Virus record (IMG/VR): IMGVR_UViG_3300028920_002946
Span: 64,001-128,000 of that record
Direction: 5' to 3' (one strand)
DNA length: 64,000 nt
From: a virus
The first letter of the stretch is position 1. Each line of letters opens with the position of its first letter. The notes under the pieces were generated by a model. That model did not search any database and was not told the origin of the DNA. It worked only from the letters and a program-made list of their open reading frames with translations. Both the position numbers and the translations under genes were made by a program. This document shows, piece after piece, positions 219 through 55,900 of this stretch.

Positions 219-2636
219 CTACTCTATCCCCGTCCACCCGGGCATCCCGGTGGCCCCTATCACGCCGTACCCGTGCCTCTCCGTGTGCGTGGACGACACC
301 CCCGTGGCCCCCGACACCGCCCCGCCCGAGAACCACAGGTCCGACAGCACGGTCGTGCCCGTCTCCGTCGTCCGGGCGAAGAACCACCACGGGCCCGTCC
401 ACAGGGAGGGCAGTTCCATGGCGACCGTCCGCCGCGGCACCGAGCCGCCCACCGTCACGCGGGCCAGATCGCCCTGCAGCGACACGTTGAGGTTCACCGC
501 GCCGTACGTGCTGCCCGTCGTGCCGAACAGCCAGTCGTAGTCCGCGCCGCTCGTGCCGATGCGCAGCGTCACCGTGTCGTTGACCGTGTCCACGATGGCC
601 CCGGCCCGGTTGTCGCCGTTGTCGGCGCCGAGGTACAGGGTGTCCGCCCCCACGTCGCCGCGCACCTTCAGGTCGAAGTCGGGCGTCACCTCGTACTCGC
701 CGACGATGTCGATCTCGTTCGTGGCGGTCAGGCTCCTCGCGACCGTGTACGTCCCCGTCCCGGTGTAGCCCCCGTCCGAGAACCTCGCCACGGCCGGGCT
801 GGCCAGCGCCTGCGTCGCCGACTGCGGCACCCCCACGAGGGTGGCCCCGCTCGCGCCCTGGAAGGACGGGTAGTACCCGGGCCTGACGGCGACGTACCGG
901 GCGCCCGAGGCGAGGGCGGCCTGTATCGACCTGTACGGCCCGGTCTCCGAGCCGTCGTTCGAGTCGTCGCCGTCCGGGGACACGAAGACCGCCCCCGTCT
1001 CGTAGACGGAGAGGTCGGGGTGCACGATGATCGTGTCGACCGTCCGGCCGCCCTGCACCAGCAGGAGCCCGTCGGTCACGGTCATCCCCCGGCTTCTGTA
1101 CACCCCTCGCCTCGCCGCACCCGTGTACCCCGTCCAGGACCCTCCCCCCGTGGACCCCGACAGGGCCGGCACCTCGTGGGTGCCCGCGTCCAAGGGGCCG
1201 CCGTCGGAGTGGCTGTACGCGTAGTCCGGCGTCCAAAACGGCCCCGTCTCCGTGCCTTGGTAGATGACGTCGTAGCCCCGATCCGAGAACCAGCTGCCCG
1301 TCGACCCCTCGTTTGGGTTGCGCTCGTGGGCGCCGACGTCGCCGTAGCCGTCCAGCACGTACCTGTGGGCGCCCGCGATGTCGACATCCCTCCCGAAGGG
1401 GGTCACGTTGCCGCGCGTGTCCGGCCCGATGCTTGTCCACCCGCCCGCCGTGAGGCCCACCCCCATCTCGCCGAGTATGTCCGTCCACCGCCCCGGGTCG
1501 CCCGCGTCGATGTCCGGCGACCCGGACTCGAGCCTGTAGTCCCCCACCGAGGCGTCCGCGTACATGGGCGCCCCCGTGAAGTTGCCCGCATCATCTGTCG
1601 GGACGGCGCCGGTATAACCAACGTCGGCATGCCAGAAGTTGTTGTATCGGATGTTTATGGGCTGGTTGAAGTAGACGCCCAGGCTGATGTTGTCGACGTC
1701 GTTGCCCGTGATGTTGTTGGAGTCCACCCTGCTGTCGGGGGACACGGTGACCCCAAATATCTTCACCGTGTTTGAGGTGGCCGCGTAGCCCGCCTCGGAG
1801 TACATGACTCGCACGACATCCCCCACGGCGAACTCGTCCTCCAGCCGCAGGCCCTCCCACTTCACGATAGAACCGCTGCCGACGACTATGTAGTCCTCGC
1901 CGTACGCGAACGACGGCCCGTTCACCACGTTCATGGCCACGTCGTACTGCCCGTTCTGGTCGACGGAGGCCCAGCCGGGCAGCGCTATGACCATGTTCGT
2001 GATGTTCGCCGCGGTCAGGGTGCGGTAGATGACCCGCATGTCCTGGTCGAGCTGCGCGGGGGGCGGCGCCCCGTCCTTGGCGTATATGGTGTTGCGCCAC
2101 AGGTCTATCCAGTCGACGGTCTCGACATCCACGGCCTTGTATCCGTCGTCGAAGACATTCTGGGCGATGGACACCTCCTCGGCGTCCCTGAGGTAGATGC
2201 CGGAAAGGTGCCGCACCATCCTGTTTCGCAGGATGGACACATAGGCCGCGTTGTCGATGATGACCGGGTTGTCCACGTCCTCGAAGACGCAGTCGACGAC
2301 GGACACCCCGCCGATGTGGTCGCCGCCCATGGGGGGCTCGTTGTCGAGGGTGATGCCCGTGTCGAGGTTCTCGAAGTGGAGGTGCTCGAAGGTGCCCTGG
2401 CAGTCGTCGACGGTGAGCGTGCCGACCCGCGGCCTGGCGCCCGGGGTGCCGATGACGCTCACGCTCCTGGACACCGCGAGGTCGCCGTAGGACGCCCCGT
2501 CCCCCGGCTGCACGGACATGACGCCCCCGTCGGAAACAAGCGAGTACCCCTGCGCCAGCGTCCGCACCGGCTTGAGGAGGCTGCCCTCGCTCGAGTCGGA
2601 GCCGTTGAGGGAGTCAATGTAGACGACGGGACGCAT
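219..2636 (-). CDS. Virion structural protein with parallel beta-helix (pectin-lyase-like) repeats, 805 aa
   Basis: Two copies of the 'YIDSLNGSDSSEGSLLKPVRTL' / 'FVSPDGDDSNDGSETGPYRSIQAA' beta-helix cap motif; N/D-rich beta repeats; 'YRLESGSPDIDAG...DVGAHE' C-cap; nine G-x-T-G motifs. Confidence 0.7.
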   Translation of the reverse strand: MRPVVYIDSLNGSDSSEGSLLKPVRTLAQGYSLVSDGGVMSVQPGDGASYGDLAVSRSVSVIGTPGARPRVGTLTVDDCQGTFEHLHFENLDTGITLDNEPPMGGDHIGGVSVVDCVFEDVDNPVIIDNAAYVSILRNRMVRHLSGIYLRDAEEVSIAQNVFDDGYKAVDVETVDWIDLWRNTIYAKDGAPPPAQLDQDMRVIYRTLTAANITNMVIALPGWASVDQNGQYDVAMNVVNGPSFAYGEDYIVVGSGSIVKWEGLRLEDEFAVGDVVRVMYSEAGYAATSNTVKIFGVTVSPDSRVDSNNITGNDVDNISLGVYFNQPINIRYNNFWHADVGYTGAVPTDDAGNFTGAPMYADASVGDYRLESGSPDIDAGDPGRWTDILGEMGVGLTAGGWTSIGPDTRGNVTPFGRDVDIAGAHRYVLDGYGDVGAHERNPNEGSTGSWFSDRGYDVIYQGTETGPFWTPDYAYSHSDGGPLDAGTHEVPALSGSTGGGSWTGYTGAARRGVYRSRGMTVTDGLLLVQGGRTVDTIIVHPDLSVYETGAVFVSPDGDDSNDGSETGPYRSIQAALASGARYVAVRPGYYPSFQGASGATLVGVPQSATQALASPAVARFSDGGYTGTGTYTVARSLTATNEIDIVGEYEVTPDFDLKVRGDVGADTLYLGADNGDNRAGAIVDTVNDTVTLRIGTSGADYDWLFGTTGSTYGAVNLNVSLQGDLARVTVGGSVPRRTVAMELPSLWTGPWWFFARTTETGTTVLSDLWFSGGAVSGATGVSSTHTERHGYGVIGATGMPGWTGIE

Positions 2637-2639
2637 CCG

Positions 2640-3461
2640 CTACACCCCCAGGGCCGCCGCGTCCGCGGCCATCAGTTCGCGCACCCAGGCGGGGTGCAGG
2701 TACAGGTCGCTCGCGTAGCGCCAGTTGTACAGCCCGACCGCCTGCCCGGCCTTGTCGAGGTACGGCACCCACACGTAGCCCGAGCCGCTCCTCGTGGCGT
2801 AGGACCGGGGGCGCGAGTACAGGATGCCGTCGGAGTCCGCGCCGGACCTCGCCGGGCACTCGACGCCGTCCACGTAGAAGGTGATGCGCCCGTCGGTGCC
2901 GCACACCCAGCAGAGCATGTGCCAGCCCTCGTCCGCCAGGCTCACCCCTGTGGTCGCCTCGACGAGGTTGGACTGCGAACCCTTGAATCCGAGCCGGTGG
3001 TCGCCAGCCGCGGCGTCCCACTGCAGTTCGAAGCACACGGCCTGGTCGGCGCCGCGCACGTCGCCATCGGGGTCCGACACCGCAAGCGGGATGATCGAGT
3101 ACCCCTCCGGGCCGAAGATCGGGTTCCTGACCCACCCCATGCACGTCAGCGCCCCGCAGTACTTCACCGACGGCCCCGAGAGCGACACCGCCGGGGACTC
3201 CGAGTGCGACGCGGACACGTAGGTGTCCACCACGCCCGTGGCGACCCCGTCCCCGTCCCCGTTGGAGGCCGTGAGGACGACGTCGAAGCTGTCCACGCCC
3301 GTGTAGAGGTGCGACGGGCTCGCGTCGCCGCCGGTGGTCCCGTCCCCGAACTCCCACAGGTAGGATGTCGGGAGGCCCGTGCTCAGGTCCGTGAACTGGA
3401 CGGTGAGCGGGATCTCGCCGTAGTCGGGCGCCCCGGTGAATCCGGCAATGGGTGCCGCCAT
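2640..3461 (-). CDS. PKD-domain plus LamG/ConA-like virion protein
   Basis: N-terminal 'PLTVQFTDLSTGLPTSYLWEFGDGTT...HLYTG...VVLTASN' is a canonical PKD domain; C-terminal 'DEGWHMLCWV...ITFYVDG' is LamG-like. Confidence 0.75.
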   Translation of the reverse strand: MAAPIAGFTGAPDYGEIPLTVQFTDLSTGLPTSYLWEFGDGTTGGDASPSHLYTGVDSFDVVLTASNGDGDGVATGVVDTYVSASHSESPAVSLSGPSVKYCGALTCMGWVRNPIFGPEGYSIIPLAVSDPDGDVRGADQAVCFELQWDAAAGDHRLGFKGSQSNLVEATTGVSLADEGWHMLCWVCGTDGRITFYVDGVECPARSGADSDGILYSRPRSYATRSGSGYVWVPYLDKAGQAVGLYNWRYASDLYLHPAWVRELMAADAAALGV

Positions 3462-3481
3462 CTCAGCCGCCTTTCAGCCTA

Positions 3482-3790
3482 TCAAGAGCCGGTTTCGCCA
3501 TAGTTGTACACCACGCGCAGCGTCAGCGGCCCGGTCACGCCGTGGGACGTGTCGTTCATGACATCCTTGACATCCGAGTTCGCCAGGTCGAGGGCGATGA
3601 GGCCCGTCCAGCCGTGGTGCGTGACGCCGAAGTCCACGCCGTTGCGCTGGGCCGGCCCGTCGGTGGGGTCGAGGGCGACGTCGTAGTTGCCGTCCGGCCC
3701 CGTGGTCGGTGGGTACTTCAGGACGAGGTAGTCGTTGCTGCCCGGGCCGACCTGCCCCGTGATGCTGTAGAATTCGACCTCGATCGCCAT
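3482..3790 (-). CDS. Small virion-associated hypothetical protein
   Basis: SD GGGAG upstream; high third-position GC; three G-x-T-G motifs; preceded by the late motif at 3833. Confidence 0.7.
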   Translation of the reverse strand: MAIEVEFYSITGQVGPGSNDYLVLKYPPTTGPDGNYDVALDPTDGPAQRNGVDFGVTHHGWTGLIALDLANSDVKDVMNDTSHGVTGPLTLRVVYNYGETGS

Positions 3791-3832
3791 GTTATCTCCC
3801 TTTCAAGGGGCGCCATACATCATAGCGCGTCT

Positions 3833-3847
3833 ATTAAGAGAGAATTA
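3833..3847 (-). promoter_or_regulatory. Late-promoter-like motif TAAT-N3-CT-N2-TAAT
   Basis: Minus strand reads TAATtctCTctTAAT; intergenic, upstream of the gene starting at 3790. Confidence 0.65.
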
Positions 3848-3859
3848 TGGCATCCCCGG

Positions 3860-6115
3860 TTACTTCCGCCAAACGTAGAGGGGTTCCCCCTCCTTCTGCC
3901 TGCTGCGGGTGTTCCAATACCGGGTGGGCAGCCCCTCGAGGCGCGTGCGCGGAAGGGCGCAATGCAAATTGCGCGGGAGATTGAGGACCAGGTAGCCGCC
4001 CGGCTCCAAAGCCGATTCGGCATACTGGAAAATCAGCCCCATAAGATCCCTCCACTCCCCGCGGCCCATTTTCCTGCCGTACACCTCCAAATCGATGTAC
4101 GGGGGCGAGGTAAACACAAGATGGCACCTTTCGGGGGCGCCCTCCAATGAGAACCCGCCGTGAACGAGGTCGCACCGGGCCGCGGACACGAAATCCCTCA
4201 TGGCGCACAAACCCTTGTGGGTCTTGCCCCAAGGCTCGAACCCCACGTAGGACCTCCCGCTGGAAACGGCCCCCAGCATCCGGCCGCCCCATCCCGCGCA
4301 CGGGTCAACGACAACGCCCCCAGGGGGGCTGTAGCGCTCGACGACAGCCTTGGCCACCACGCTCGGAAACGCGGTGACGCCCCCGCTGTACTGTATCAAC
4401 GCGTTCCGGACGAATTTGGGAAGTATGCTTTTCTTGGACTTCAGGCAATACTGCAGGGTCGAATGAAGCGTGGAGTGCCCGGAGAAGGTGTCAGCCGGCG
4501 AAACCCCGCGATATGTGGCCTCGCTCATATGGGGCATGTAGTGCTTGAACAACTCATCACCCACGTTTGCATACCTCAAGACCGTATCGGACTTCCACAG
4601 GTATCTGCTCTGAAACGACTCTATCAACTTCCAGGATCGGCGAAGATACTCGTCCCCGTACCGGGGAGCCGGGAACCCCTTGGAATGATAGTAGGCAACC
4701 GCGTCGTGCAGCACCTCCGGATTCAAGTCAACCACGTACTTGTTTACAAAAGACAAATCCAGGTCGGTGTTGACGGCGGGCTTGAACAACTCCGGAAAAT
4801 AGGTTTCCCAATAGGAGCCCAAATAACCCTCATCGGACGACTTGTACCAAAAGCCGGGCAGTATATACTCACCGGGCACAGGCTCGATGCGCAACGTCCT
4901 TCTGGCGGCGTTCTTGAAGAAGAATCGATTCTCCAACGACCCTATAATGGACTTCCCGGCAGTGACTATGTCCCCTTGTGAACCGTCATCCATGAAATAG
5001 CACGCCCGGCCGAGGTCATTCAATTCGGCGGCGATCATCTCGAAATTCCTGGACCCATCCGGGTTCAGATACCTGCAGTATTCATCGAACCCCGGGCACG
5101 AGAGGCCTATCTGCTCCTCGGACACTATCACACAGTCCTCATAGGCCTGGCCCTTCCTCGGCACCGTAACCACATTGGACAGATGATCCCGCAGTATCTG
5201 CGCCTTCACGTAGAGGTAGCTCAGCTGCGCCAAGGAATGGTTGACCACAAAGCGGCCGTTGAAGTCCAAATGGCCGTCGCCCATCAGCCATCCAAGCAGC
5301 ATCTGATGCACATCCTCGTCGCGGGGGGGCGTCTCCATCGGGGGGCGCCCCACGAGAAGATCCCGTATGGCCTCCAAGTCGCCGCTCCAGGCGACCCTTC
5401 TTTCAGGCAGCGCTATGCCCGCCTGCGCGATCCTGCGATGAAGGACGGTTTCCGAAACCCCCCTCTCCCGGCTGAGGGCCGCAACGCTGCCGGCCTTTTT
5501 CAAGGACTCCTCAAACTCCTCGTCGCTTCCGGAGTTGGCGATGCCCCTGGCCCTGTGTATCCGGTGCCACCTCGGGCCATCGAGGCCGATGCTCTTGATG
5601 TGGATCAAGAGGTCATCATCGTTTACACGGACGCCGTGGATGCGCTCTATCTCACCCGCCATGTCGACAACGCGCATGTCGCGGGACAGCATATCCTCCA
5701 CATCGCTCTTCTTGACATGCCCCCTGAGCCATGTCCGGTTATCCAATGACTTGATGCCGAACCTCCGGAGCCACCACCCAGCCGTATGTCTCGTAAGGGC
5801 CAGCCCGAATTCCTCATTCAAGGCCAAGGCGACCTGTTCGTAGCCGAACTTCTTGGTCTCGCACAGATACCGGGCCCGGTCTTTCATCGCCGCCGTCCAC
5901 GACGACTCCCCGAGAACCTGGGAAGCGGCGGCGCGCTTGGGCTGGATAAGGCCCTTTTTCTTGAGGAGGGAGATCTGCCTCTTGACCCAACGAGGCGTCT
6001 GACCGAGACGCTCAGCCATCTCGGCATTCTTCATCGATGAGTAGTTTTCGACGATAAACTTGAGGTTCTCGGGGGTCTTGCGGTCGGCGGTGACGCCCCT
6101 CTTTGGCGTGCTCAT
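3860..6115 (-). CDS. HTH + LAGLIDADG endonuclease + amino-methyltransferase (SPPY) fusion, copy 1
   Basis: HTH-like N-terminus; 'LLGWLMGDGHL' and 'YFMDDGS' LAGLIDADG motifs; motif I 'VVDPCAGWGGR' and motif IV 'FTSPPY'. Start re-called to the ATG at 6115, 6 nt after a -10 box. Confidence 0.8.
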   Translation of the reverse strand: MSTPKRGVTADRKTPENLKFIVENYSSMKNAEMAERLGQTPRWVKRQISLLKKKGLIQPKRAAASQVLGESSWTAAMKDRARYLCETKKFGYEQVALALNEEFGLALTRHTAGWWLRRFGIKSLDNRTWLRGHVKKSDVEDMLSRDMRVVDMAGEIERIHGVRVNDDDLLIHIKSIGLDGPRWHRIHRARGIANSGSDEEFEESLKKAGSVAALSRERGVSETVLHRRIAQAGIALPERRVAWSGDLEAIRDLLVGRPPMETPPRDEDVHQMLLGWLMGDGHLDFNGRFVVNHSLAQLSYLYVKAQILRDHLSNVVTVPRKGQAYEDCVIVSEEQIGLSCPGFDEYCRYLNPDGSRNFEMIAAELNDLGRACYFMDDGSQGDIVTAGKSIIGSLENRFFFKNAARRTLRIEPVPGEYILPGFWYKSSDEGYLGSYWETYFPELFKPAVNTDLDLSFVNKYVVDLNPEVLHDAVAYYHSKGFPAPRYGDEYLRRSWKLIESFQSRYLWKSDTVLRYANVGDELFKHYMPHMSEATYRGVSPADTFSGHSTLHSTLQYCLKSKKSILPKFVRNALIQYSGGVTAFPSVVAKAVVERYSPPGGVVVDPCAGWGGRMLGAVSSGRSYVGFEPWGKTHKGLCAMRDFVSAARCDLVHGGFSLEGAPERCHLVFTSPPYIDLEVYGRKMGRGEWRDLMGLIFQYAESALEPGGYLVLNLPRNLHCALPRTRLEGLPTRYWNTRSRQKEGEPLYVWRK

Positions 6116-6121
6116 GGCATA

Positions 6122-6150
6122 AATATACAGCGACCCAAGAGCCGTGTCAA
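6122..6150 (-). promoter_or_regulatory. Sigma70-type promoter, leaderless
   Basis: TTGACA-N17-TATATT-N6-ATG. Confidence 0.75.
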
Positions 6151-6171
6151 CTAGGGCCTTACATTTTTTCG

Positions 6172-7053
6172 TTACATGGAGCCAATCCAATTACGCCTCG
6201 ATTGAACTCCGGGTTTGGAATAAGGCCCCAAAGCCGAACTGATTCCTATACCGTAACGCGGCTGCTTCAGACCGCGGACGATTTTTATCGATTCCTTGGC
6301 CTGCTCCGCGGCCTCCTTGAACTCGGTCAGGAAGTTGTTCTTCATCGACTCGTACTTCGACGACTTCTCGAGATCCAGGGAGACCCCCGATATGCTGTAG
6401 CCGTATTCGTCGGCGATCCAGTTGAGGGCCACGGCCGCGCAGGCCATGGCGGCCGCGCGCATCAGCACGGTAGTTCTCCACCTGATGGGCATGTCCGTGA
6501 GGCTGACCCCCGTGACGGGCGGGTAGGAGTTGAACAGGTCCACCGCCATGAGGAGGTACTCGTAGAGCTCCTCGTCCTCCCATATGTACCCGAACACCTG
6601 CGTCTGCGCCTGCAGGAACTTCTCGTGGGACGGCGGCCGGAAGCGGTAGTTGCGGTCGGGGTTGTTGTCCCGCAGGATGATGCGCAGCCTGCGGACCATG
6701 AGGTCGGCCGTCTCGTCGCCGGTGACGCTGACCGTGACGCAGTCCTTCACCACGTTGAAGGCCTGGACGGCCTCCACGAGCGGAGAGGTCGGGGTCTCGC
6801 GGAAGTTCCAGCGCACGAGCCAGTCGCCGATGTTCGAGTCCAGGGGCAGCGTGGCATCCACGTAGTACTGCCCGGTGCCGGAGGTCGCCGGCACCCTGTC
6901 CGGCGCCCCTATGAGCACCTCCACGCCCGTGGTGTCGTCGAAGAGGGAGTACCGGATGTAGGCCGGGTCCGTCGGGACCCCGGAGCCGTTCCTTACGGTG
7001 ATTTTCAGGTCGTCCTGCGCGAGGGTCTGCCCCGGCTTGAAGGCAACTGACAT
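6172..7053 (-). CDS. Virion structural protein, possibly neck/head-tail connector
   Basis: SD GGAG; N-terminal Ig-like domain paralogous to the 7110 protein; helical C-terminus with 'YSISGVSLDLEKSSKYESM', reminiscent of head-completion proteins; late motif upstream. Confidence 0.55.
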   Translation of the reverse strand: MSVAFKPGQTLAQDDLKITVRNGSGVPTDPAYIRYSLFDDTTGVEVLIGAPDRVPATSGTGQYYVDATLPLDSNIGDWLVRWNFRETPTSPLVEAVQAFNVVKDCVTVSVTGDETADLMVRRLRIILRDNNPDRNYRFRPPSHEKFLQAQTQVFGYIWEDEELYEYLLMAVDLFNSYPPVTGVSLTDMPIRWRTTVLMRAAAMACAAVALNWIADEYGYSISGVSLDLEKSSKYESMKNNFLTEFKEAAEQAKESIKIVRGLKQPRYGIGISSALGPYSKPGVQSRRNWIGSM

Positions 7054-7097
7054 CTCGAACTCCTTGCTGCTGGCGCCTCCTACGTTAACCCGATGGT

Positions 7098-7112
7098 ATC
7101 AAAAGGGTATTA
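7098..7112 (-). promoter_or_regulatory. Late-promoter-like motif
   Basis: TAATaccCTttTGAT; its first TAA is the stop codon of the upstream gene. Confidence 0.55.
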
Positions 7113-7568
7113 CGGGGTTACAATCAAGGAGGCCGCGAGATCGCGCCAGGGGTCGGTGACGGTGATGGTGCCGGACAGGCTGTGGTATGTCGCGGTGACA
7201 TCCAGGCTGCCCTCGTAAACGCCCGCGCATGCGACGGTGAACATCCTCTCGATGGCCTGGACGCCGGACGCGGCGGACACGCGGTATTTCCAGCGCAGGC
7301 GGTAAGTGCCGGTTGGCCAGTCGTCCGCTATGATGAAGTTGGCCCTGAACAGGCCCGTCCGGAGTTCCTCGGCGCGTCTGTTCAGGGATCCGATGCGCTG
7401 CGGGACGCCCGTGGATGGATCCACCCAGGCGACATCGTAGCGTATCCAGTAGGGCGAGTAGGCGTTGGAAATCCCGTCGGGGTGATAGACCGAGTTGGAC
7501 CAGAACGATACGTTGAGGTCGTCCCTCTCCAGCCTGTAGCCTTGGTAGTAAACGCCCGTCTCGCCCAT
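7110..7568 (-). CDS. Ig-like structural protein, paralog of the N-terminus of 6172-7053
   Basis: 'YYQGYRLERDDLNV...YWIRYDV...GLFRANFII...GTYRLRWKY' parallels 'FKPGQTLAQDDLKI...YIRYSL...GQYYVDATL...GDWLVRWNF'; SD GAGGGAG before ATG 7568. Confidence 0.7.
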   Translation of the reverse strand: MGETGVYYQGYRLERDDLNVSFWSNSVYHPDGISNAYSPYWIRYDVAWVDPSTGVPQRIGSLNRRAEELRTGLFRANFIIADDWPTGTYRLRWKYRVSAASGVQAIERMFTVACAGVYEGSLDVTATYHSLSGTITVTDPWRDLAASLIVTP

Positions 7569-12422: not shown

Positions 12423-13301
12423 TCAGCGGCCCGGGTTGCCGCGGCGGTCGCCGCGCTTGAAGTCCCGCACCCTCTTGAAGGCGCGCCCGAGGTGCCTGCG
12501 GTACTCCTCCGTGTCCGCCACGTCGATGTGCTCGCGGACGTACCCCATGATGGCCCTGAAGGCCGTCACCGTGGACTCGACGTCCGACATCGCCGCGTGC
12601 CACCCCTCTATCTTCACCCCCAGGGCCTGCAGGACCCTCTCCAGCGTCGCCGAGGGCCTCCCCTCGGCGTTGCGTATGCCCGACAGCACCTTGGCCGCTG
12701 TGGCGTCCCCAGAGGCCTCCAGCGCCTCGAGCATGGGGTAGAAGAAGAACCTGGCGAACAGCATGGTGTCCCAGACGCCGCGGTTGGGGATCCTCCCCAC
12801 CTTCGTGGCGACCATGCGCAAATCGAACTCCGGGTTGTGGCCCACGAGCAGGGCGTTGTGCCTCGCGCAGAAGTCCTTGAACTCCCGCAGAACCTCCATC
12901 TCGGGCCGGGCCTCGAGGCCGCTCTCCTCGTACCTGGTCATCTTGAGCACGTCCTCGACCGTCATGTGCCGCTTGTCGGCGGGCGTATTCTCGCCAACCT
13001 TCTGCTGCTCGATCTGCCTCCGCGTCTGATCCGTGAGCGCTGCCCGGGCGTGCATCGAGTCGATCTTCTTAAGGTCGGGGCCGCGGACGGCGACGGCGGC
13101 CACCTCGGTCACTTGGTGCGTGTGCTGGTCGAGGCCGGTCGTCTCCGTGTCGAAGAAGATGAAGGTCTCACTCGACAGGCGGTCGAGAAGCTCCCTGAGA
13201 GGCCCAAGATACTTCGCCTTGCCCGTGCCCGCCATCCTCTCCAGATAGGCTTCCACGACCCTCAGGCGCCTGCTCCCCATCCTGTGCATGCTCATCGACA
13301 T
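12423..13301 (-). CDS. DEDDh 3'-5' exonuclease (DnaQ-like)
   Basis: ExoI 'FFDTETTGLD', ExoII 'GHNPEFDLRM', ExoIII 'WHAAMSDV'. Confidence 0.9.
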   Translation of the reverse strand: MSMSMHRMGSRRLRVVEAYLERMAGTGKAKYLGPLRELLDRLSSETFIFFDTETTGLDQHTHQVTEVAAVAVRGPDLKKIDSMHARAALTDQTRRQIEQQKVGENTPADKRHMTVEDVLKMTRYEESGLEARPEMEVLREFKDFCARHNALLVGHNPEFDLRMVATKVGRIPNRGVWDTMLFARFFFYPMLEALEASGDATAAKVLSGIRNAEGRPSATLERVLQALGVKIEGWHAAMSDVESTVTAFRAIMGYVREHIDVADTEEYRRHLGRAFKRVRDFKRGDRRGNPGR

Positions 13302-26351: not shown

Positions 26352-28946
26352 CTACCGGAACATACCCAGGAACGAGTCCCTCAAGCCCTTGTCCCGGGCG
26401 GCCGCGAAGAGACTCGCCTTGAGGTGCGCGTACGGTTTGCCCGCGTTGAAGAGGCGCTTCATCCTCGATGCAGGATTGCCTGTCGCACTTTCATAGGCGC
26501 CGAACCCCAACGCATCGCCCGCCAAATCGCAAGCATCAAAATACTCCCGTATCCTGTCGACGGGCTTCTTCACGACCCGCCCCGGCTTAAACCCGCACGA
26601 TTCAACGAACTTGTTCCATGAGCCGAATCTGCGCTCCAACACGTGTGCGGGCACGCCGTTGATGCCGTGCCCCTCATAATTGCCCCGTGCAAGCCCGATG
26701 GACGGCGCATTTTCCTTGAACCAACAAACCGCGCCGTCCAAGTCATACCTTTCACGGAAGACACGACGTCCCCTTCTTCTCCTCACCCCTCGAGGCGGGC
26801 GCTGTGTGTGCCTGTCAGGGGGCTCCCAAGTGATAGGGGGGGCCTCGTCAACCGAACAGAAGGACAGAATATCCTCATGGGCCCCGCCATTGAAGTTTCT
26901 GACAGGAACGGCAAACTTCTCAAACAGATGAAACCCCACAGACTTGCAGAGTCGTATGGTGTCCTCTATCAAAGGCGCGCAGGAGCGCTCCGAAAGACAC
27001 ACGGAGAACACCCCGCCGGGCGCAAGCGACCCTATGCAGTTGCGGACGGTGGGATCCCAATAACCCTCTATCCACCGCCGATAGTCGGGGAACTTCGCCA
27101 CACTCTGGGTGCTCTCGTCGCTGTACCTTTCGTAATCGAAGTACGGGGGGCTCGAGAAGGCGACGCTAAAGGCCCCGGGTTTGGGGCCGAAACCCTCCGA
27201 TCCGGATTTGACCACATCAAACCTCCCCCCGACCACGGGACGAAGAAACGACCCGAAGCGCTCCAAGTTGGAGGCCGTCTCCGAACAGGGTTCGACGCAC
27301 ACATAGTCCATGCCCAGAGACATGGCCCCGAGCATGCGGGACCCGTACCCGCCGCTGTAGTCCAGCACCCGCCCGTTGGCGCCATACCTGTAGAACACAA
27401 ACCTCGCCACGGAGGGCTTGAAATTGCTCACGCATAGCCGCATGGCCTTGAATCCCCTGCGCATCGAAGCCTCGCCCACGCGGTCCGCATGCTCAAGGCG
27501 GTTTCTGACATAGCCCCGCATGAAGGACTCGTCCCGCCACAAATCAACAGGCGAGGCGTGGCCCTTGCGGCTCGCGGAGTACATGTTCGGAAAAAAGCCC
27601 TCGCACAGTATCATGCCCGCCGAACTATGAGCCAAAACGCCCCCCTCGTCCCTGATAATCGATGAACGCTTGAAAGACGAAGCCAGATACTCGGCCCTCT
27701 TCGCGCTGAGGGACATATAGGGAAACGGTTTGCCCCAATATCTTCTGAACAGGGTGTCCTCCATCGCCGACTTCACGGGATCCGGGGACAGCCGATAGAA
27801 TTTCGGGCGCGGGTCGCCGACGAGCGCGGACACCCGGGCGACCTCCTCCGCGGACAGGAAATCCTCGGGTATCTTGTAGTACATGTCGGGGGTGGCGACC
27901 CCAAGCACGATGCGGAAAAAATCGCGGTAGTGGCTTTTCGACACTGTCACGTTATGGCCCGAAAGGGAAAACCCCCATCCGTATCTGTCCTCCAACCAAC
28001 CGACGAAGCGCTCAATCTGCGAGCGGTCGCCGCAGAAGTTGGCTATGGACATCTGCCTCCTCTCGTCGTCGTAACTGCCGTCGTCCAGGAACCAATAGCC
28101 CAAAATGCGGTCATCCCAATTCTCCTCGATGAACTTAAGAGGGACTGCCTTGCCCGGCACACCATCGGTGTAGAAGGCTTCTCGAAACTCCGCGAAAGCG
28201 GGATGCGTGACCGTATTAATTCTGAACTCATTTCTATCGTGATCCTTCATAATTCTATTTGAGTAGGGCTCAAGGGCAACCATCTTGCTTCTTAAGTAGT
28301 CTTTTTGTTTTGCCGAGTGAGTTTCATAATATCTCGGTGACCTGTCGATGCCGCCGTCGCCGAGGAGGCCCCCTATGATGAGGAAACGCTGCTCTTTGGT
28401 AAGAGCGGGATATTGACCCTGTCGCCAATCCTCCTTTGGCCCTATGCCCCTCTGACGTAGAACAGGAAGCCAAACGGTCTTCGACAACCCCACCTTCTCC
28501 GAAAAAGCGTCGTTCGTCATGGAGTGGTACATGGATCGCAATTCATCGGTCGACATGGAAACCAGACGTTCGGACGCGTTCCGCGTCTTTGAAAATTTGT
28601 CCGTAGCGAGCAGACCTATCCTTTTTCGTCGGTATGCCACACCCGGGCCTGTCAAGCCGAAACGACGCCCAATTTCCTCGTCGGAAAGTCCCTGCTCGCA
28701 AAATCCCTTGAGGACATCATCCGTCAATAGCTTTCTCAGCCCCTTTTTCTTGCCCGTGTACGCAACACGGACATCAGAGCGACCAACGCTCTTGGGGTTT
28801 GTGGGAATGCCGTATTTCCTCAAGAGCTTAAAAACGGCGTCCTCAGTCACTCCGACCAACGAACCTATCTCCCGGCACCGAAGACCGTGTGTGGAGTACA
28901 GCTGCCTAAGACTCTCTTCATCGAGTTTGTCAAACGAATAGTTCAT
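26352..28946 (-). CDS. HTH + LAGLIDADG endonuclease + amino-methyltransferase (SPPY) + homing-endonuclease-associated repeat fusion, copy 2
   Basis: 'LIIGGLLGDGGI' and 'GYWFLDDGS'; 'VLDYSGGYGSRMLG' and 'FSSPPYFDYERYS'; C-terminal 'LERRFGSWNKFVESCGFKP' repeat; start re-called to ATG 28946. Confidence 0.8.
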   Translation of the reverse strand: MNYSFDKLDEESLRQLYSTHGLRCREIGSLVGVTEDAVFKLLRKYGIPTNPKSVGRSDVRVAYTGKKKGLRKLLTDDVLKGFCEQGLSDEEIGRRFGLTGPGVAYRRKRIGLLATDKFSKTRNASERLVSMSTDELRSMYHSMTNDAFSEKVGLSKTVWLPVLRQRGIGPKEDWRQGQYPALTKEQRFLIIGGLLGDGGIDRSPRYYETHSAKQKDYLRSKMVALEPYSNRIMKDHDRNEFRINTVTHPAFAEFREAFYTDGVPGKAVPLKFIEENWDDRILGYWFLDDGSYDDERRQMSIANFCGDRSQIERFVGWLEDRYGWGFSLSGHNVTVSKSHYRDFFRIVLGVATPDMYYKIPEDFLSAEEVARVSALVGDPRPKFYRLSPDPVKSAMEDTLFRRYWGKPFPYMSLSAKRAEYLASSFKRSSIIRDEGGVLAHSSAGMILCEGFFPNMYSASRKGHASPVDLWRDESFMRGYVRNRLEHADRVGEASMRRGFKAMRLCVSNFKPSVARFVFYRYGANGRVLDYSGGYGSRMLGAMSLGMDYVCVEPCSETASNLERFGSFLRPVVGGRFDVVKSGSEGFGPKPGAFSVAFSSPPYFDYERYSDESTQSVAKFPDYRRWIEGYWDPTVRNCIGSLAPGGVFSVCLSERSCAPLIEDTIRLCKSVGFHLFEKFAVPVRNFNGGAHEDILSFCSVDEAPPITWEPPDRHTQRPPRGVRRRRGRRVFRERYDLDGAVCWFKENAPSIGLARGNYEGHGINGVPAHVLERRFGSWNKFVESCGFKPGRVVKKPVDRIREYFDACDLAGDALGFGAYESATGNPASRMKRLFNAGKPYAHLKASLFAAARDKGLRDSFLGMFR

Positions 28947-28953
28947 GATAGGT

Positions 28954-28982
28954 AATATAGCATTTGGAGATGCTACTGTCAA
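28954..28982 (-). promoter_or_regulatory. Sigma70-type promoter, leaderless, with overlapping inverted repeat
   Basis: TTGACA-N17-TATATT-N7-ATG; TAGCAT-N6-ATGCTA at 28958-28975. Confidence 0.75.
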
Positions 28983-29040
28983 TAGTTCTTTTCCCTATTT
29001 CCCAAATGCATATGTTTGCGCTAACGACCCTATAAGTAGA

Positions 29041-29072
29041 CAAAAAAGAGTCGGGGACGAATCCCCGACTCT
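29041..29072 (-). terminator. Rho-independent terminator after the major capsid gene
   Basis: AGAGTCGGGGA-TTCG-TCCCCGACTCT followed by TTTTTG. Confidence 0.9.
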
Positions 29073-29094: not shown

Positions 29095-29976
29095 CTAGCG
29101 AGCAATCTTCACGCGGCACAGCGCCAGCGGGTTGTAGCAACCAATCCCAAGGTGTTCGAAAATGCTGAACCCTATCCTTCTTGCCCGGGGATCGTCTGCG
29201 CTCAGAACTGTGAGTTCTGTACGGACGGGAATACGCCCGAAGAACTCCGGCTCCGCGCACACGTAGGCGTACCCACGCGCGACCTTACGAGAGACGATGA
29301 CCTGCGCGCCCCAGAGGGTGGCGAGCATGCCGCTCTTCAGCAGCGTGGCCTGGCTCTCGAGGTCGAGGACATCGCGGCCCCACTTCCTCAGGTCGGCGAA
29401 GTCCAGCGCGTTCATGAACACGCGGGCGACCCTGAGGTCGTGCGTCTCGATGCGCGCGTAGGCGTCGATGAGGTTGGAGGGGGTGAGCGGCGCCACGGCG
29501 TTGACCTGGGCGTTGGTGTAGCTGCTGTCCAGGTTGTCGAAACCGTTCGCAGCGACGGCGTCCATGACGTCGAAGATGCGTCCGTCCTCAGCGGCCTGGA
29601 TCTGCGCCTTGCCGAGGTCCTGGGCGCGCTCGATGATGTCGAAGCGGCGCTCCTTGACCTGGGTCAGCGGGATCTCAGGGTTCGAGGCGAGCTCGAAGAG
29701 CGGGAAGGTCACCCTGCGGCCCTTGACCACGGCCAGGATGTTCTCGCCCTCTTCGCCGACCACGAATGCGGTGACGTTGGGGTCCTTGTCGTAGATGGGC
29801 AGTGCGCCATCCGGGAGCTGCTCGACCAGGAATGCCTTCCTGGCGACCGACGTGTAGTCTCTCCGCAGACGGAGAGGCTGGATCATCGACGCAGCGATCT
29901 TCGCACGGCCGGAGGCCGTCTTCAGATACTCGTTGATGATTTGCTGCTTGACCTCGTTGCTGATAGTGTCAGGCAT
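29095..29976 (-). CDS. Major capsid protein (HK97 fold, no delta domain)
   Basis: Order protease-scaffold-decoration-MCP-terminator; SD AGGAGG; extreme codon bias. 'SMIQPLRLRRDY...VEQLPDGALPIYD...FELASNP' resembles, from memory, Bxz1-type MCPs. Confidence 0.85.
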   Translation of the reverse strand: MPDTISNEVKQQIINEYLKTASGRAKIAASMIQPLRLRRDYTSVARKAFLVEQLPDGALPIYDKDPNVTAFVVGEEGENILAVVKGRRVTFPLFELASNPEIPLTQVKERRFDIIERAQDLGKAQIQAAEDGRIFDVMDAVAANGFDNLDSSYTNAQVNAVAPLTPSNLIDAYARIETHDLRVARVFMNALDFADLRKWGRDVLDLESQATLLKSGMLATLWGAQVIVSRKVARGYAYVCAEPEFFGRIPVRTELTVLSADDPRARRIGFSIFEHLGIGCYNPLALCRVKIAR

Positions 29977-40353: not shown

Positions 40354-40382
40354 TTGACGGCGGCGTTGTAAAAACGTATATT
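40354..40382 (+). promoter_or_regulatory. Sigma70-type promoter
   Basis: TTGACG-N17-TATATT. Confidence 0.7.
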
Positions 40383-41169: not shown

Positions 41170-41198
41170 TTGACAGAGGCTTTTGAAAAAAGTATATT
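41170..41198 (+). promoter_or_regulatory. Sigma70-type promoter
   Basis: TTGACA-N17-TATATT. Confidence 0.75.
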
Positions 41199-54965: not shown

Positions 54966-55892
54966 TCAGAACAGCGAGTACGTCTCCACCTTCTCGGCCG
55001 TGACGGATTCCCCGTATCTCACATTGAGGGACGAGGCGAACAGATCCCCCACGGCATCCGGATCCACTGACTTGACGCTGTAGGATTTCAGCACCTCGGC
55101 CATAACCCCCTTGTCCACGGACCCCGGCGTCTCGACGATGCCGCCGACGTCCTCCCTCAGCTTCATAAGCGCCATATTTCGGTAGGCCGCGTCCCTGAAT
55201 CCCTTGAAAGCCGCCCTCTCCCTCTCGGTAAGCGACGCAGCCCCCAACGCGGAGTAGAGCGCGTCAATCCCCTTGTGTTCGGAGATGAGCGACGCCACGA
55301 CCTTGCGCCTCACGCGGGGTATCCCGCCGAGGCCGTCGCTCTGGTCGCCGTCGAAGCTCCTGAACTGCGCCAGGAGAGCCGGCGGGACGCCGAACCGTTC
55401 GACCACGGCCGACTCGTCGTAGAACCTTTCGGGCTTCTGGCCGCTTTTGGGCCTGAACACGATTATCTTGCCGTCCTCGACCAACTGAAGGAAGTCTTTG
55501 TCGTTTGAATATACCACTATATGGCCGTCCTGGCAACGCCAACGCGAAACCAAGGTCGCGACGACATCGTCGGCCTCCTCGTCCGGGCATCTGTATTGGT
55601 CGACGCCGCAAGCGGTTAGGAACCTTTCCAGATCCCTGACCTCGTCCATCACAGGGTTCGGGAGGCGGGTGCGGTCGGCCTTGTAGTCAGGCTTGATCTC
55701 CAGCTTCCGCCTCGAGCGGCTGTCCCACACGACGGCAAACTTGTAGCCCCGGTATCGTTTCTTCAAAGAAACGATGGTGCGCACGAAGCCGAAGAACATG
55801 CCGGACGGCCTGCCATCCGCCGTCTTCAGTTCGAAGTTGGCGTTGTGCGACCTGTGGGCCAGGTTCATGCCGTCTATGACGAATCTGTTCAT
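54966..55892 (-). CDS. 5'-3' exonuclease / flap endonuclease (PolA N-terminal-like)
   Basis: 'VIDGMNLAHR', 'VVWD', 'YKADR', 'EEADDVVATL', 'SNDKDFLQL', H3TH 'GDQSDGLGGIPRV'. Confidence 0.9.
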   Translation of the reverse strand: MNRFVIDGMNLAHRSHNANFELKTADGRPSGMFFGFVRTIVSLKKRYRGYKFAVVWDSRSRRKLEIKPDYKADRTRLPNPVMDEVRDLERFLTACGVDQYRCPDEEADDVVATLVSRWRCQDGHIVVYSNDKDFLQLVEDGKIIVFRPKSGQKPERFYDESAVVERFGVPPALLAQFRSFDGDQSDGLGGIPRVRRKVVASLISEHKGIDALYSALGAASLTERERAAFKGFRDAAYRNMALMKLREDVGGIVETPGSVDKGVMAEVLKSYSVKSVDPDAVGDLFASSLNVRYGESVTAEKVETYSLF

Positions 55893-55900
55893 ACCGCCCC

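What the first reader, a model, noticed from the sequence alone, without database searches (positions are those of the whole stretch)
3860..6150. HTH-LAGLIDADG-methyltransferase fusion, copy 1: possible self-protecting mobile unit
Seen: HTH-like N-terminus, paired LAGLIDADG motifs with acidic residues intact (MGDG, MDDG), then an amino-methyltransferase (DPCAGWGG...SPPY). There are no Hint splicing motifs, so it is not an intein. It has its own promoter, lower GC, and sits between structural genes. Inference: a single-chain nuclease plus methylase resembling a homing or restriction-modification hybrid that protects its own genome while cutting competing phage alleles.
Basis: partly seen in the sequence, partly recalled or inferred. 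Interest (0 to 1): 0.72.

Follow-up and report, generated by a model that had tools for sequence, protein, structure and literature searches.

The report
Mobile nuclease-methylase gene in megaphage
A giant uncultured phage carries an optional, self-contained gene that joins a rare-cutting "homing" DNA nuclease to a DNA methylase in one protein; relatives gain and lose it at one fixed spot, so it is probably a selfish mobile gene that may mark its own genome as safe, a combination I found no published account of.

Summary
Minus-strand gene 3860-6115 encodes 751 aa in four parts:
- an N-terminal helix-turn-helix array;
- a single-chain LAGLIDADG domain closest to I-SceI and I-WcaI, with both catalytic Asp residues intact;
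- a helical linker;
- an S-P-P-Y amino-methyltransferase.

A perfect TTGACA-17-TATATT promoter ends 6 nt before the ATG.

It is not a core gene. It lies just downstream of the head-tail connector gene. Of 80 related megaphage loci, only 2 carry it there. Two essentially complete relatives of about 467-470 kb lack any such gene. On the connector tree it needs at least 5 gains or losses within a 21-member clade.

In other relatives the same site holds a different gene on the opposite strand: a homing endonuclease fused to a Mom-like DNA-modification domain, which shares the first HTH module.

Copy 2 lies downstream of the major capsid gene and behaves the same way.

The architecture is common in metagenomes. 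In 138 of 145 fusions both active sites are intact.

Best reading: a free-standing homing-type gene fused to a probable N4-cytosine DNA methylase. Self-protection by that methylase is plausible but untested, and four lineages have lost the methylase motifs while keeping the nuclease ones. I rate it a new variant of known kinds. I found no literature describing it.

The parts
6122..6150 (-). Sigma-70-type promoter TTGACA-17-TATATT. The -10 box ends 6 nt before the ATG, so the mRNA is probably leaderless.
   Evidence: The window has 5 matches against 0.02 expected. Copy 2 has the same arrangement.
3860..6115 (-). The HTH-LAGLIDADG-methyltransferase gene: 751 aa plus stop.
   Evidence: There are 22 full-length homologues at 29-64% identity.
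5930..6103 (-). HTH1 module, residues 5-62. It is also found as the C-terminal module of the Mom-type homing gene that occupies the same site in relatives.
   Evidence: HTH1 scores 63-84 bits in L012, L013, L016, L021 and L086. It is unique in the window's own genome.
5366..5929 (-). Further helix-turn-helix array, residues 63-250.
   Evidence: helices at pLDDT about 75-90. (the array recurs in L086). (HTH_23 in 23 of 65 relatives).
4871..5353 (-). Single-chain LAGLIDADG nuclease domain, residues 255-415. The catalytic Asp codons are D280 at 5276-5278 and D377 at 4985-4987.
4406..4870 (-). Helical linker domain, residues 416-570. It travels with the methyltransferase in the stand-alone homologues of about 330 aa.
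3863..4405 (-). Amino-methyltransferase core, residues 571-751. Motif I is D-P-C-A-G-W-G-G (604-611) and motif IV is T-S-P-P-Y (669-673). There is no recognition domain after it.
6172..7053 (-). Upstream flank: the conserved head-tail connector gene, which anchors the insertion hot spot.
   Evidence: 80 related loci at 42-82% identity. (33% identical to the annotated connector of Tunturiibacter phage Tunturi_5).
3482..3790 (-). Downstream flank: a conserved 102-aa gene. In the empty-site relatives L019 and L024 it follows the connector gene after a short intergenic gap.
26352..28946 (-). Copy 2: a paralogous HTH-LAGLIDADG-methyltransferase gene of 864 aa. Detectable similarity to copy 1 is 30% identity across the linker and methyltransferase part.
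   Evidence: (LAGLIDADG_2 at E 1e-13).
28954..28982 (-). Copy 2 promoter, TTGACA-17-TATATT, 7 nt before its ATG. A hairpin followed by a T run lies just upstream at about 29040-29070.
29095..29976 (-). Major capsid (HK97-type) gene, directly upstream of copy 2.
   Evidence: Phage_capsid. (48% identical to the Tunturi_5 major head protein and 39% to Bacillus phage G gp27).

Best explanation
This is a free-standing, homing-type selfish gene of a roughly 460-kb megaphage related to Bacillus phage G. It is transcribed from its own host-type promoter as a probably leaderless mRNA.

**What the protein is (shown or inferred from sequence and fold)**
- An N-terminal HTH array anchors the protein on a long DNA site at or near the junction downstream of the head-tail connector gene. 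This is inferred, because a different homing gene at the same site shares the first HTH module.
- A monomeric, I-SceI-like LAGLIDADG domain with both catalytic Asp residues intact would make a double-strand break in genomes that lack the element. Repair from the carrier genome during co-infection would then copy the gene in. This is inferred from what is known of LAGLIDADG and free-standing phage homing endonucleases.
- The C-terminal module is a compact SPPY amino-methyltransferase, most likely an N4-cytosine DNA methylase, with no recognition domain of its own. It must therefore be aimed by the HTH and LAGLIDADG parts (inferred).

**Most likely role of the methylase (inferred, about 40-50%)**
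It methylates the element's own recognition region, so the carrier genome can keep the conserved target sequence and still be immune. In logic this is a single-chain, very-rare-cutting restriction-modification enzyme.

**What is shown**
- The architecture.
- Intact motifs under purifying selection.
- Accessory status.
- Presence/absence polymorphism at a fixed site.
- Atypical composition.

**What is not shown**
Cleavage, the methylation target, and protection.
For: **Architecture and fold**
-.

**Mobility and accessory status**
- Only 2 of 80 loci that hold the connector gene carry this gene downstream.
- Homologues found by protein search always sit in this same synteny.
- On the connector tree, a 21-row clade holds 7 carriers, 6 with the Mom-type gene and 8 with neither. 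At least 5 changes are forced by well-supported branches. The window is sister (99) to L010, which lacks the gene.
- The 98%-complete 466,729-bp nearest relative and a 100%-complete 469,617-bp relative have no LAGLIDADG-methylase gene anywhere.
- The cultured relative Tunturi_5 has both sites empty.
- GC3 is 0.78 against 0.86-0.96 in neighbouring genes.
- The gene has its own consensus promoter.

**Active sites kept**
- D280 and D377 are invariant in 23 homologues.
- G-D-x ... x-D-G is kept in about 165 of 175 relatives.
- Both sites are intact in 138 of 145 fusions.

**Same logic in another gene**
- At the same site, on the opposite strand, relatives carry a homing-endonuclease (DUF7487, phrog_3339, phrog_12131) + Mom-like fusion that shares HTH1.

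**Copy 2**
- It lies behind the major capsid gene and shows the same patchiness.

**DNA methylase assignment**
- N6_N4_Mtase is found in 53 of 65 relatives.
- Stand-alone homologues in cultured phages are annotated as N4-cytosine or DNA methylase.
- Motif IV is S-P-P-[YF] in nearly all members.
Against: - No activity was tested.
- The gene tree is broadly congruent with the connector tree: the most distant carrier, L009, is the most distant in both. Ancient presence with repeated loss or replacement is therefore not excluded.
- No close pair of carrier and non-carrier genomes was available, so no co-conversion tract or exact insertion boundary could be shown. DNA identity to the nearest relative is only about 74%.
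- Four lineages (P0024, the P0025 group, P0070, P0199) have lost methylase motifs while keeping the nuclease Asp pair. This argues against obligatory self-protection.
- The closest solved folds to the methyltransferase domain are RNA m2G/m6A enzymes (TrmN, Trm11). The Pfam DNA-methylase hit on this protein is marginal and partial. The DNA substrate is therefore inferred from the fusion partners and from annotations of homologues.
- The motif census is biased towards sequences that resemble a profile containing those motifs.
Confidence: 0.6

Rival explanations
1. This is a phage-encoded single-chain restriction-modification weapon, not a homing element. Its nuclease would cut unmethylated host or competitor DNA at many sites, while the fused methylase protects phage DNA. 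It would work like a Type IIG enzyme, but with a LAGLIDADG nuclease.
For: - The order nuclease, helical linker, then methylase with motif I before motif IV parallels Type IIG enzymes. Pfam Eco57I methylase hits occur in 4 of 65 relatives.
- It has a host-type promoter of its own.
- Both active sites are conserved.
- It is an accessory gene, as defence or offence genes usually are.
Against: - The closest folds to the nuclease domain are long-target homing enzymes (I-SceI, I-WcaI).
- The large HTH array suggests a long, rare recognition site.
- The gene always sits at one fixed position next to a highly conserved structural gene, and alternates there with other homing-endonuclease genes. That is the signature of homing, not of a freely placed defence gene.
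- Lineages with a dead methylase but an intact nuclease exist. That combination would be lethal for a frequent cutter.
Confidence: 0.15
2. This is a domesticated, nuclease-inactive protein. The LAGLIDADG and HTH parts serve only as a sequence-specific DNA-binding platform, as in WhiA, for a site-specific methylase or regulator that benefits the phage.
For: - LAGLIDADG scaffolds have been recruited as DNA-binding regulators. WhiA is among the fold hits, Z 8.3-8.7.
- Forms with HTH plus methylase but no LAGLIDADG exist in the wider family, so DNA-binding modules alone can aim this methylase.
- The methylase has no recognition domain of its own.
Against: - The metal-binding Asp of both LAGLIDADG helices is invariant in the subfamily and kept in about 165 of 175 relatives.
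- Several lineages lose the methylase motifs but keep the nuclease motifs. Only 1 in 145 does the reverse.
- The gene is dispensable, patchy and compositionally foreign.
Confidence: 0.12
3. This is an active homing endonuclease that carries the methylase only as cargo. The methylase would benefit the phage, for example by escape from host restriction, and so slow loss of the selfish gene. It would play no part in immunity to its own nuclease.
For: - Methylase-dead but nuclease-intact lineages persist.
- The same genome carries several other methylases, according to earlier notes of this scan.
- Stand-alone versions of the methylase module occur in cultured phages away from any nuclease.
Against: - This methylase module is fused specifically to LAGLIDADG and HTH modules, and to no other nuclease type, in the sample examined.
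- Lacking a recognition domain, it would be confined to the nuclease's long site, which is a poor design for general anti-restriction.
- A Mom-type modification domain is fused to an unrelated homing nuclease at the same site. That suggests a functional coupling of cutting and modifying.
Confidence: 0.13

Closest known systems
Monomeric LAGLIDADG homing endonucleases (I-SceI, I-WcaI, I-DmoI; Pfam LAGLIDADG_2)
   Same: - Two LAGLIDADG helices in one chain, each ending in a catalytic Asp-Gly.
- Same fold: Foldseek E 8e-5 to I-SceI, Z 11.4 to I-WcaI.
- Sporadic presence next to highly conserved genes.
   Different: - Not in an intron or intein. It is free-standing with its own promoter.
- It carries about 250 aa of HTH modules at the N-terminus and about 335 aa of linker plus methyltransferase at the C-terminus.
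- Sequence identity to solved enzymes is only 11-17%.
Free-standing homing endonuclease genes of T4-like phages (Seg and Mob proteins; GIY-YIG and HNH types with separate DNA-binding modules)
   Same: - Intergenic genes with their own promoters.
- Patchy among relatives.
- Modular: a nuclease plus DNA-binding domains.
- They sit beside conserved genes and spread by cutting the element-free allele during co-infection (my knowledge of the field, not tested here).
   Different: - The nuclease is LAGLIDADG.
- A DNA-modifying domain is fused to it. I know of none in Seg or Mob proteins.
Type IIG / IIC single-chain restriction-modification enzymes (Eco57I, MmeI, BpuSI)
   Same: - One polypeptide with an N-terminal nuclease, a helical connector and an amino-methyltransferase with motif I before motif IV.
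- Self/non-self logic by methylation.
   Different: - The nuclease is LAGLIDADG, not PD-(D/E)XK. A 2014 review of Type II enzymes (PMC4081073) lists the PD-D/EXK, HNH and GIY-YIG catalytic sites and never mentions LAGLIDADG.
- There is no C-terminal target-recognition domain; an HTH array takes its place.
- It is phage-borne and site-fixed.
ShiLan-type elements: HNH homing endonucleases nested in actinophage DNA methylase genes (PMC11855218, PMC9957025)
   Same: A homing endonuclease physically tied to a phage DNA methylase gene.
   Different: In ShiLan elements the nuclease is a separate, out-of-frame ORF inserted into a pre-existing methylase. Here both domains are read in one frame as one protein, and the whole gene is the mobile unit.
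DUF7487 homing endonuclease + Mom-like fusion found here in relatives (L012, L013, L014, L016, L021, L086)
   Same: - Same insertion site.
- Same HTH1 module.
- Same plan: a homing nuclease plus a DNA-modifying domain in one protein.
   Different: - Unrelated nuclease.
- A Mom-type (acyltransferase-like) modification domain instead of a methyltransferase.
- Opposite strand.

Membership tests
LAGLIDADG homing endonucleases (single-chain) | Two LAGLIDADG helices, each ending in an acidic residue followed by Gly. | tested here: met
   M-G-D-G (D280) and M-D-D-G (D377) are invariant in 23 homologues. They are kept in about 165 of 175 wider relatives.
LAGLIDADG homing endonucleases (single-chain) | Pseudo-dimeric alpha-beta-beta-alpha-beta-beta-alpha fold. 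| tested here: met
   The domain model has pLDDT 78. Foldseek gives I-SceI at E 8e-5. VIA gives I-WcaI at Z 11.4 (rmsd 5.0, 166 aligned) and I-Tsp061I at Z 10.6. The top 15 rows are all LAGLIDADG proteins, followed by a drop to Z below 4.5.
LAGLIDADG homing endonucleases (single-chain) | Pfam LAGLIDADG_2 score above the curated cut-off. | tested here: inconclusive
   The score is 22.9 bits in hmmscan (cut-off 25) and 26.1 bits in the genome scan (above the cut-off). Copy 2 scores 51.9-56.3 bits. 52 of 65 relatives match, with best E 2e-44.
LAGLIDADG homing endonucleases (single-chain) | Site-specific double-strand cleavage of a long target. | not testable with these tools
   This needs biochemistry.
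LAGLIDADG homing endonucleases (single-chain) | Sporadic, mobile-element-like distribution at a fixed site. | tested here: met
N4-cytosine / N6-adenine amino DNA methyltransferases | AdoMet-binding motif I and catalytic motif IV (S/D/N)-P-P-(Y/F). | tested here: met
   D-P-C-A-G-W-G-G and F-T-S-P-P-Y are present. Across the family, motif IV is TSPPY in 120 members, SSPPY in 64 and SSPPF in 17.
N4-cytosine / N6-adenine amino DNA methyltransferases | Class I Rossmann methyltransferase fold. | tested here: met
   TrmN gives Z 17.2 (rmsd 2.6, 170 aligned) and Trm11 gives Z 16.5. Foldseek agrees.
N4-cytosine / N6-adenine amino DNA methyltransferases | Pfam N6_N4_Mtase membership. | tested here: inconclusive
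   The score is 27.3 bits against a cut-off of 26.7, but only 48 residues around motif I match. The motif order here (I then IV) is permuted relative to that family. 53 of 65 relatives match.
N4-cytosine / N6-adenine amino DNA methyltransferases | The substrate is DNA; the identity of the modified base. | not testable with these tools
   There are only indirect pointers: fusion to DNA-binding and nuclease domains, and homologues annotated as N4-cytosine or DNA methylase. The nearest solved folds are RNA methylases.
Type IIG single-chain restriction-modification enzymes | Nuclease and methyltransferase in one polypeptide. | tested here: met
Type IIG single-chain restriction-modification enzymes | PD-(D/E)XK nuclease domain. 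| tested here: not met
   The nuclease domain is LAGLIDADG.
Type IIG single-chain restriction-modification enzymes | C-terminal target-recognition domain after the methyltransferase. | tested here: not met
   Only 78 residues follow S-P-P-Y, and they complete the Rossmann core.
Inteins | Hint splicing blocks flanking the endonuclease, inside a host protein. | tested here: not met
   No Hint or intein family appears at E <= 1. The gene is intergenic, with its own promoter and a conserved start.
WhiA-like nuclease-dead LAGLIDADG regulators | Loss of the catalytic acidic residues. | tested here: not met
   Both Asp residues are retained and invariant.

The most novel reading that the evidence does not exclude
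Megaphages may harbour a general, undescribed class of "self-immunising" homing genes. In these, a homing nuclease is fused to a DNA-modifying enzyme (an m4C-type methylase here, a Mom-like domain in the alternative occupant), and both are aimed by shared HTH modules at one long site.

The fused enzyme would mark the carrier's copy of a conserved structural-gene target, so that only unmarked, element-free genomes are cut. That would be the first restriction-modification-like system built on a LAGLIDADG nuclease. It would also be a natural pairing of a meganuclease with a site-specific methylase.
Probability: 0.35. Interest if true: 0.85.

Novelty: new variant of a known kind. Interest (0 to 1): 0.7.

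Why it matters
- **A new route to self-immunity.** Homing endonucleases and restriction-modification systems are the two classic selfish nuclease systems, and they are usually treated as separate solutions. Homing genes avoid cutting their own genome because the target is disrupted or mutated. Restriction systems avoid it by methylation. A gene that fuses a LAGLIDADG meganuclease to a methylase, and that behaves as a mobile element at a fixed site beside essential structural genes, would join the two. It would explain how a homing gene can target a sequence too constrained to mutate.
- **Scale.** The family is large: 5,777 cluster representatives at E <= 0.001 in the profile search, and LAGLIDADG-methylase fusions dominate the long forms sampled. 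It is essentially unannotated.
- **Practical value.** It could supply naturally paired meganucleases and long-site DNA methylases.
- **Annotation.** The result flags both genes in this window as accessory selfish elements, not virion genes.

Tried and rejected
- **Intein:** rejected. There are no Hint families, and the gene is intergenic.
- **Intron-encoded gene:** rejected. There is no Rfam hit in 2500-7500 at E <= 0.1.
- **ShiLan-like nested endonuclease inside a methylase:** rejected. This is one frame and one protein, and the nuclease lies N-terminal to the whole methylase module.
- **Core or fixed gene:** rejected.
- **Flanking genes:** PHROG searches of nine flanking genes gave nothing. 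PDB sequence search of the connector gene gave nothing.
- **Nuclease core of the Mom-type gene:** Pfam and PDB searches found nothing. Its nuclease assignment rests on the DUF7487 and PHROG "homing endonuclease" labels only.
- **Whole-model fold searches:** these were filled by the methyltransferase domain. The LAGLIDADG domain therefore had to be modelled separately. The HTH array and the linker were not searched as separate folds.
- **ESM Atlas search of the linker:** no usable hit.
- **Insertion boundaries:** DNA alignment with the nearest relative (about 74% identity) could not define them. A shared 12-mer (GGCCCTAGTTGA) at the left junction and an 8-mer (TCTCTTAA) at the right junction may be chance.
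- The contexts of the closest homologues (P0004-P0006, 58-64% identity) were therefore not seen.
- **Literature:** nine full-text searches found no description of a natural LAGLIDADG-methyltransferase or homing-endonuclease-Mom fusion. Absence from that library is not proof of novelty.
- **Tree:** it used the quick method. L004 and L005, duplicates of L003, were left out. L006 did not enter the tree.
Full report
**What is there**

The window is bases 64,001-128,000 of a 182,677-bp IMG/VR virus record. The identical protein also occurs on a 463,769-bp contig. The capsid gene in the window is 72% identical to that of a 485-kb uncultured phage, 48% to Tunturiibacter phage Tunturi_5 and 39% to Bacillus phage G gp27. 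This is therefore a G-like megaphage with about 63% GC.

The finding's coordinates cover a minus-strand ORF, 3860..6190. The true start is the ATG at 6115, because 22 full-length homologues at 29-64% identity all begin at the same conserved N-terminus. A perfect TTGACA-17-TATATT promoter lies at 6150-6122, 6 nt before that ATG. Only five such matches exist in the 64 kb, against 0.02 expected, and one of them sits in the same way before the paralogue, copy 2. There is no Shine-Dalgarno spacing, so both mRNAs are probably leaderless (inference).

Several homologues were called with five extra residues such as M-Y-I-W-D before the conserved Met. This suggests that a TATAT-like -10 box is conserved at that distance (inference).

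**Anatomy**

AlphaFold2 on the 23-sequence alignment gave mean pLDDT 87. The 751-aa protein has five parts:
- **HTH1**, residues 5-62.
- **A further helix-turn-helix array**, residues 63-250. Pfam HTH hits on this protein are weak, but HTH_23 is found in 23 of 65 relatives.
- **A LAGLIDADG domain**, residues 255-415.
- **A helical linker**, residues 416-570.
- **A methyltransferase core**, residues 571-751.

*LAGLIDADG domain.* Modelled alone (pLDDT 78), it matches I-SceI (Foldseek E 8e-5), I-WcaI (Z 11.4) and I-Tsp061I (Z 10.6). The top 15 rows are all LAGLIDADG proteins, followed by a sharp drop. Both LAGLIDADG helices end in Asp-Gly. D280 and D377 are invariant in the subfamily.

*Methyltransferase.* Motif I is D-P-C-A-G-W-G-G and comes before motif IV, F-T-S-P-P-Y. 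The protein ends 78 residues later, with no recognition domain. The fold is closest to the amino-methyltransferases TrmN, Trm11 and Trm14 (Z 15-17). The Pfam N6_N4_Mtase hit is marginal (27.3 against 26.7 bits, motif I only). From my own knowledge, S-P-P-[YF], and in particular [LIVMF]-T-S-P-P-[FY], is the signature of N4-cytosine methylases. Stand-alone homologues of about 330 aa in a Vibrio phage and in Twort-like Staphylococcus phages are annotated as N4-cytosine or DNA methylase.

*What it is not.* No intein or Hint family and no intron RNA is present.

**Is it a core gene or an accessory one?**

Homologues found by protein search always lie in the same place. The order is: a protein of about 295 aa, this gene, a protein of about 100 aa, a PKD/LamG protein, then a beta-helix protein of about 800 aa. 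On its own, that looks like a fixed gene.

Searching from the neighbour tells a different story. The upstream 293-aa gene matches an annotated head-tail connector. It was found in 80 viral contigs at 42-82% identity. Only L017 and L022 carry this gene downstream of it.
- In L024 and L019 the connector gene is followed by the 100-aa gene after a short intergenic gap.
- The nearest relative, L010 (82% connector identity), runs from the connector straight into the PKD/LamG gene.
- That relative's genome (466,729 bp, 98% complete) and another (469,617 bp, terminal repeats, 100% complete) contain no LAGLIDADG-methylase gene at all.
- The cultured relative Tunturi_5 is empty at both sites.

On a tree of the connector protein, one well-supported 21-row clade holds 7 carriers, 6 genomes with a different insert and 8 with neither. 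Well-supported branches force at least 5 gains or losses. The window is sister (99) to the element-free L010.

The gene's GC3 is 0.78, and copy 2's is 0.705. Flanking genes have GC3 of 0.86-0.96.

**The alternative occupant**

In L012, L013, L014, L016, L021 and L086 the same gap holds a gene of about 700-970 aa on the opposite strand. It matches DUF7487, PHROG "homing endonuclease" families (E 4e-23 and 2e-21), and the Mom / Mom-like DNA-modification family.

In five of these six genes the C-terminus is an HTH1 module 51-55% identical to residues 7-61 of the gene studied here. L086 also has part of the HTH array. HTH1 occurs nowhere else in the window's genome.

Two unrelated nuclease-plus-DNA-modifier fusions therefore share a DNA-binding module and an address. 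The simplest reading is that HTH1 recognises DNA at this locus (inference).

More distant relatives carry other DUF7487 genes just after the connector gene. In several, the connector gene itself holds an intein. The locus is a homing hot spot.

**Copy 2**

Gene 26352-28946 (minus strand) has the same architecture, with LAGLIDADG_2 at E 1e-13 and S-S-P-P-Y. It lies directly downstream of the HK97-type major capsid gene, after a hairpin with a T run.

Among 80 capsid loci, the two closest (93% and 90% capsid identity) lack it. About 30 carry LAGLIDADG-methylase fusions of several subtypes at that site, some in tandem. Others carry LAGLIDADG-only or LAGLIDADG + ParB_N genes.

**The wider family**

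A profile of the subfamily found 5,777 cluster representatives at E <= 0.001 and 2,073 at E <= 1e-10, among 1.84 billion. The linker-plus-methylase module occurs in three settings:
- alone, at about 330-420 aa;
- after HTH modules;
- after HTH plus LAGLIDADG.

Of 65 long relatives, 52 match LAGLIDADG_2 and 53 match N6_N4_Mtase. Of 40 further proteins in which my own model saw no LAGLIDADG, 15 still match LAGLIDADG_2 or LAGLIDADG_3. None matches HNH or GIY-YIG.

In 145 fusions with both domains aligned:
- 138 keep both the Asp pair and methylase motifs I and IV;
- 6, from four lineages, have lost methylase motifs but keep the Asp pair;
- 1 has lost an Asp.

This census is biased towards motif-bearing sequences. 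It still argues that both activities are normally under selection, and that the nuclease is the more persistent of the two.

**Mechanism**

Shown:
- The architecture.
- Intact, conserved active sites.
- An autonomous promoter.
- Accessory status.
- Gain and loss at a fixed site.
- Foreign composition.
- A parallel nuclease-modifier fusion at the same address.

Inferred:
- The protein binds a long site near the connector junction through its HTH and LAGLIDADG parts.
- It cleaves element-free genomes during co-infection and is copied in by recombinational repair, as free-standing homing genes of T4-like phages are.
- The methylase, lacking a recognition domain, is aimed by the same modules and most likely methylates (m4C) the element's own site, making the carrier immune without mutating a constrained structural-gene sequence.

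I put about 0.75 on [quoted passage not shown] and about 0.4-0.5 on the self-protection step.

The rivals are a frequent-cutting RM-like weapon, a nuclease-dead binding platform, and a methylase carried as mere cargo. Each is weighed in its own section of this report.

**Comparison with what is known**

This works like a free-standing homing endonuclease gene, and in logic like a Type IIG restriction-modification fusion.
- It passes the structural tests for LAGLIDADG enzymes and amino-methyltransferases.
- It fails two defining features of Type IIG enzymes: a PD-(D/E)XK nuclease and a C-terminal recognition domain.
- A comprehensive review of Type II enzymes never mentions LAGLIDADG.
- A review of homing endonucleases and their host relatives describes no methylase fusion.
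- ShiLan elements tie HNH endonucleases to phage methylases, but as nested, out-of-frame genes.
- Nine literature searches found no account of this architecture.

I class it as a new variant of known kinds.

**Limits**
- No biochemistry was done.
- No close pair of carrier and non-carrier genomes was available.
- Exact insertion boundaries were not defined.
- The methylase substrate is inferred.
- The look-up of encoding contigs closed, so the contexts of the closest homologues were not seen.

Noticed in passing
L012:6950-9085 (-), L014:6892-8970 (-), also L013, L016, L021, L086: Relatives carry a homing-endonuclease (DUF7487; phrog_3339, phrog_12131) + Mom-like DNA-modification fusion at the same intergenic site. 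In five of the six it ends in the same HTH1 module as the gene studied here. I found no literature on DUF7487 or on Mom fused to a homing endonuclease.
   Followed up: partly
window 26352-28982 (-): Copy 2 of the architecture sits directly behind the major capsid gene, with its own terminator and consensus promoter. The two closest relatives lack it. About 30 of 80 capsid loci hold diverse LAGLIDADG-methylase fusions there, some in tandem (L104, L122, L123, L124, L126).
   Followed up: yes
L094:6890-8647 (+), L107:6876-8627 (+): At the capsid-downstream site, some relatives carry LAGLIDADG_2 fused to a ParB_N domain (with a weak GmrSD_N match) instead of the methylase. L118 has three LAGLIDADG ORFs in a row.
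   Followed up: no
L009:4211-6445 (protein P0025), also P0070, P0024, P0199: These are full-length family members in which methylase motifs I and/or IV are destroyed (for example T-I-P-G in place of S-P-P-Y) while both LAGLIDADG Asp residues are kept.
   Followed up: partly
window 41170-41198 (+), 40354-40382 (+), 55508-55536 (-): There are three further TTGACA-17-TATATT promoters (one perfect, two with one mismatch). The one at 41170 precedes a LamG-domain protein gene.
   Followed up: no
L008:8404-9957; L022:3069-5421; L027, L029, L030-L032, L040, L046, L052, L066 (matches of 1.2-2.4 kb to a 0.88-kb gene): The head-tail connector gene is itself interrupted in many relatives. Intein_splicing is recorded in L008, where the product is 517 aa. 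The capsid gene match is likewise stretched in L111, L116 and L125.
   Followed up: no
window 6151-6201 and L010:6808-6880: A 12-mer, GGCCCTAGTTGA, overlaps the -35 box. It is shared by the window and the element-free nearest relative, immediately before their sequences diverge. It may mark the left insertion boundary, or it may be chance.
   Followed up: partly
window 12423-13301 (-) and 54966-56399 (-): The first is a protein like a DNA polymerase exonuclease subunit (phrog_192, E 1.5e-21). The second is a 5'-3' exonuclease / FEN-type protein (E 1.2e-33).
   Followed up: no
L003:410-5755; L006/L007 genes with PF25216: Relatives encode a 1,781-aa multi-glycosyltransferase with a faint intein match. 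They also encode a Volactin-family (actin-like) protein a few genes downstream of the element.
   Followed up: no
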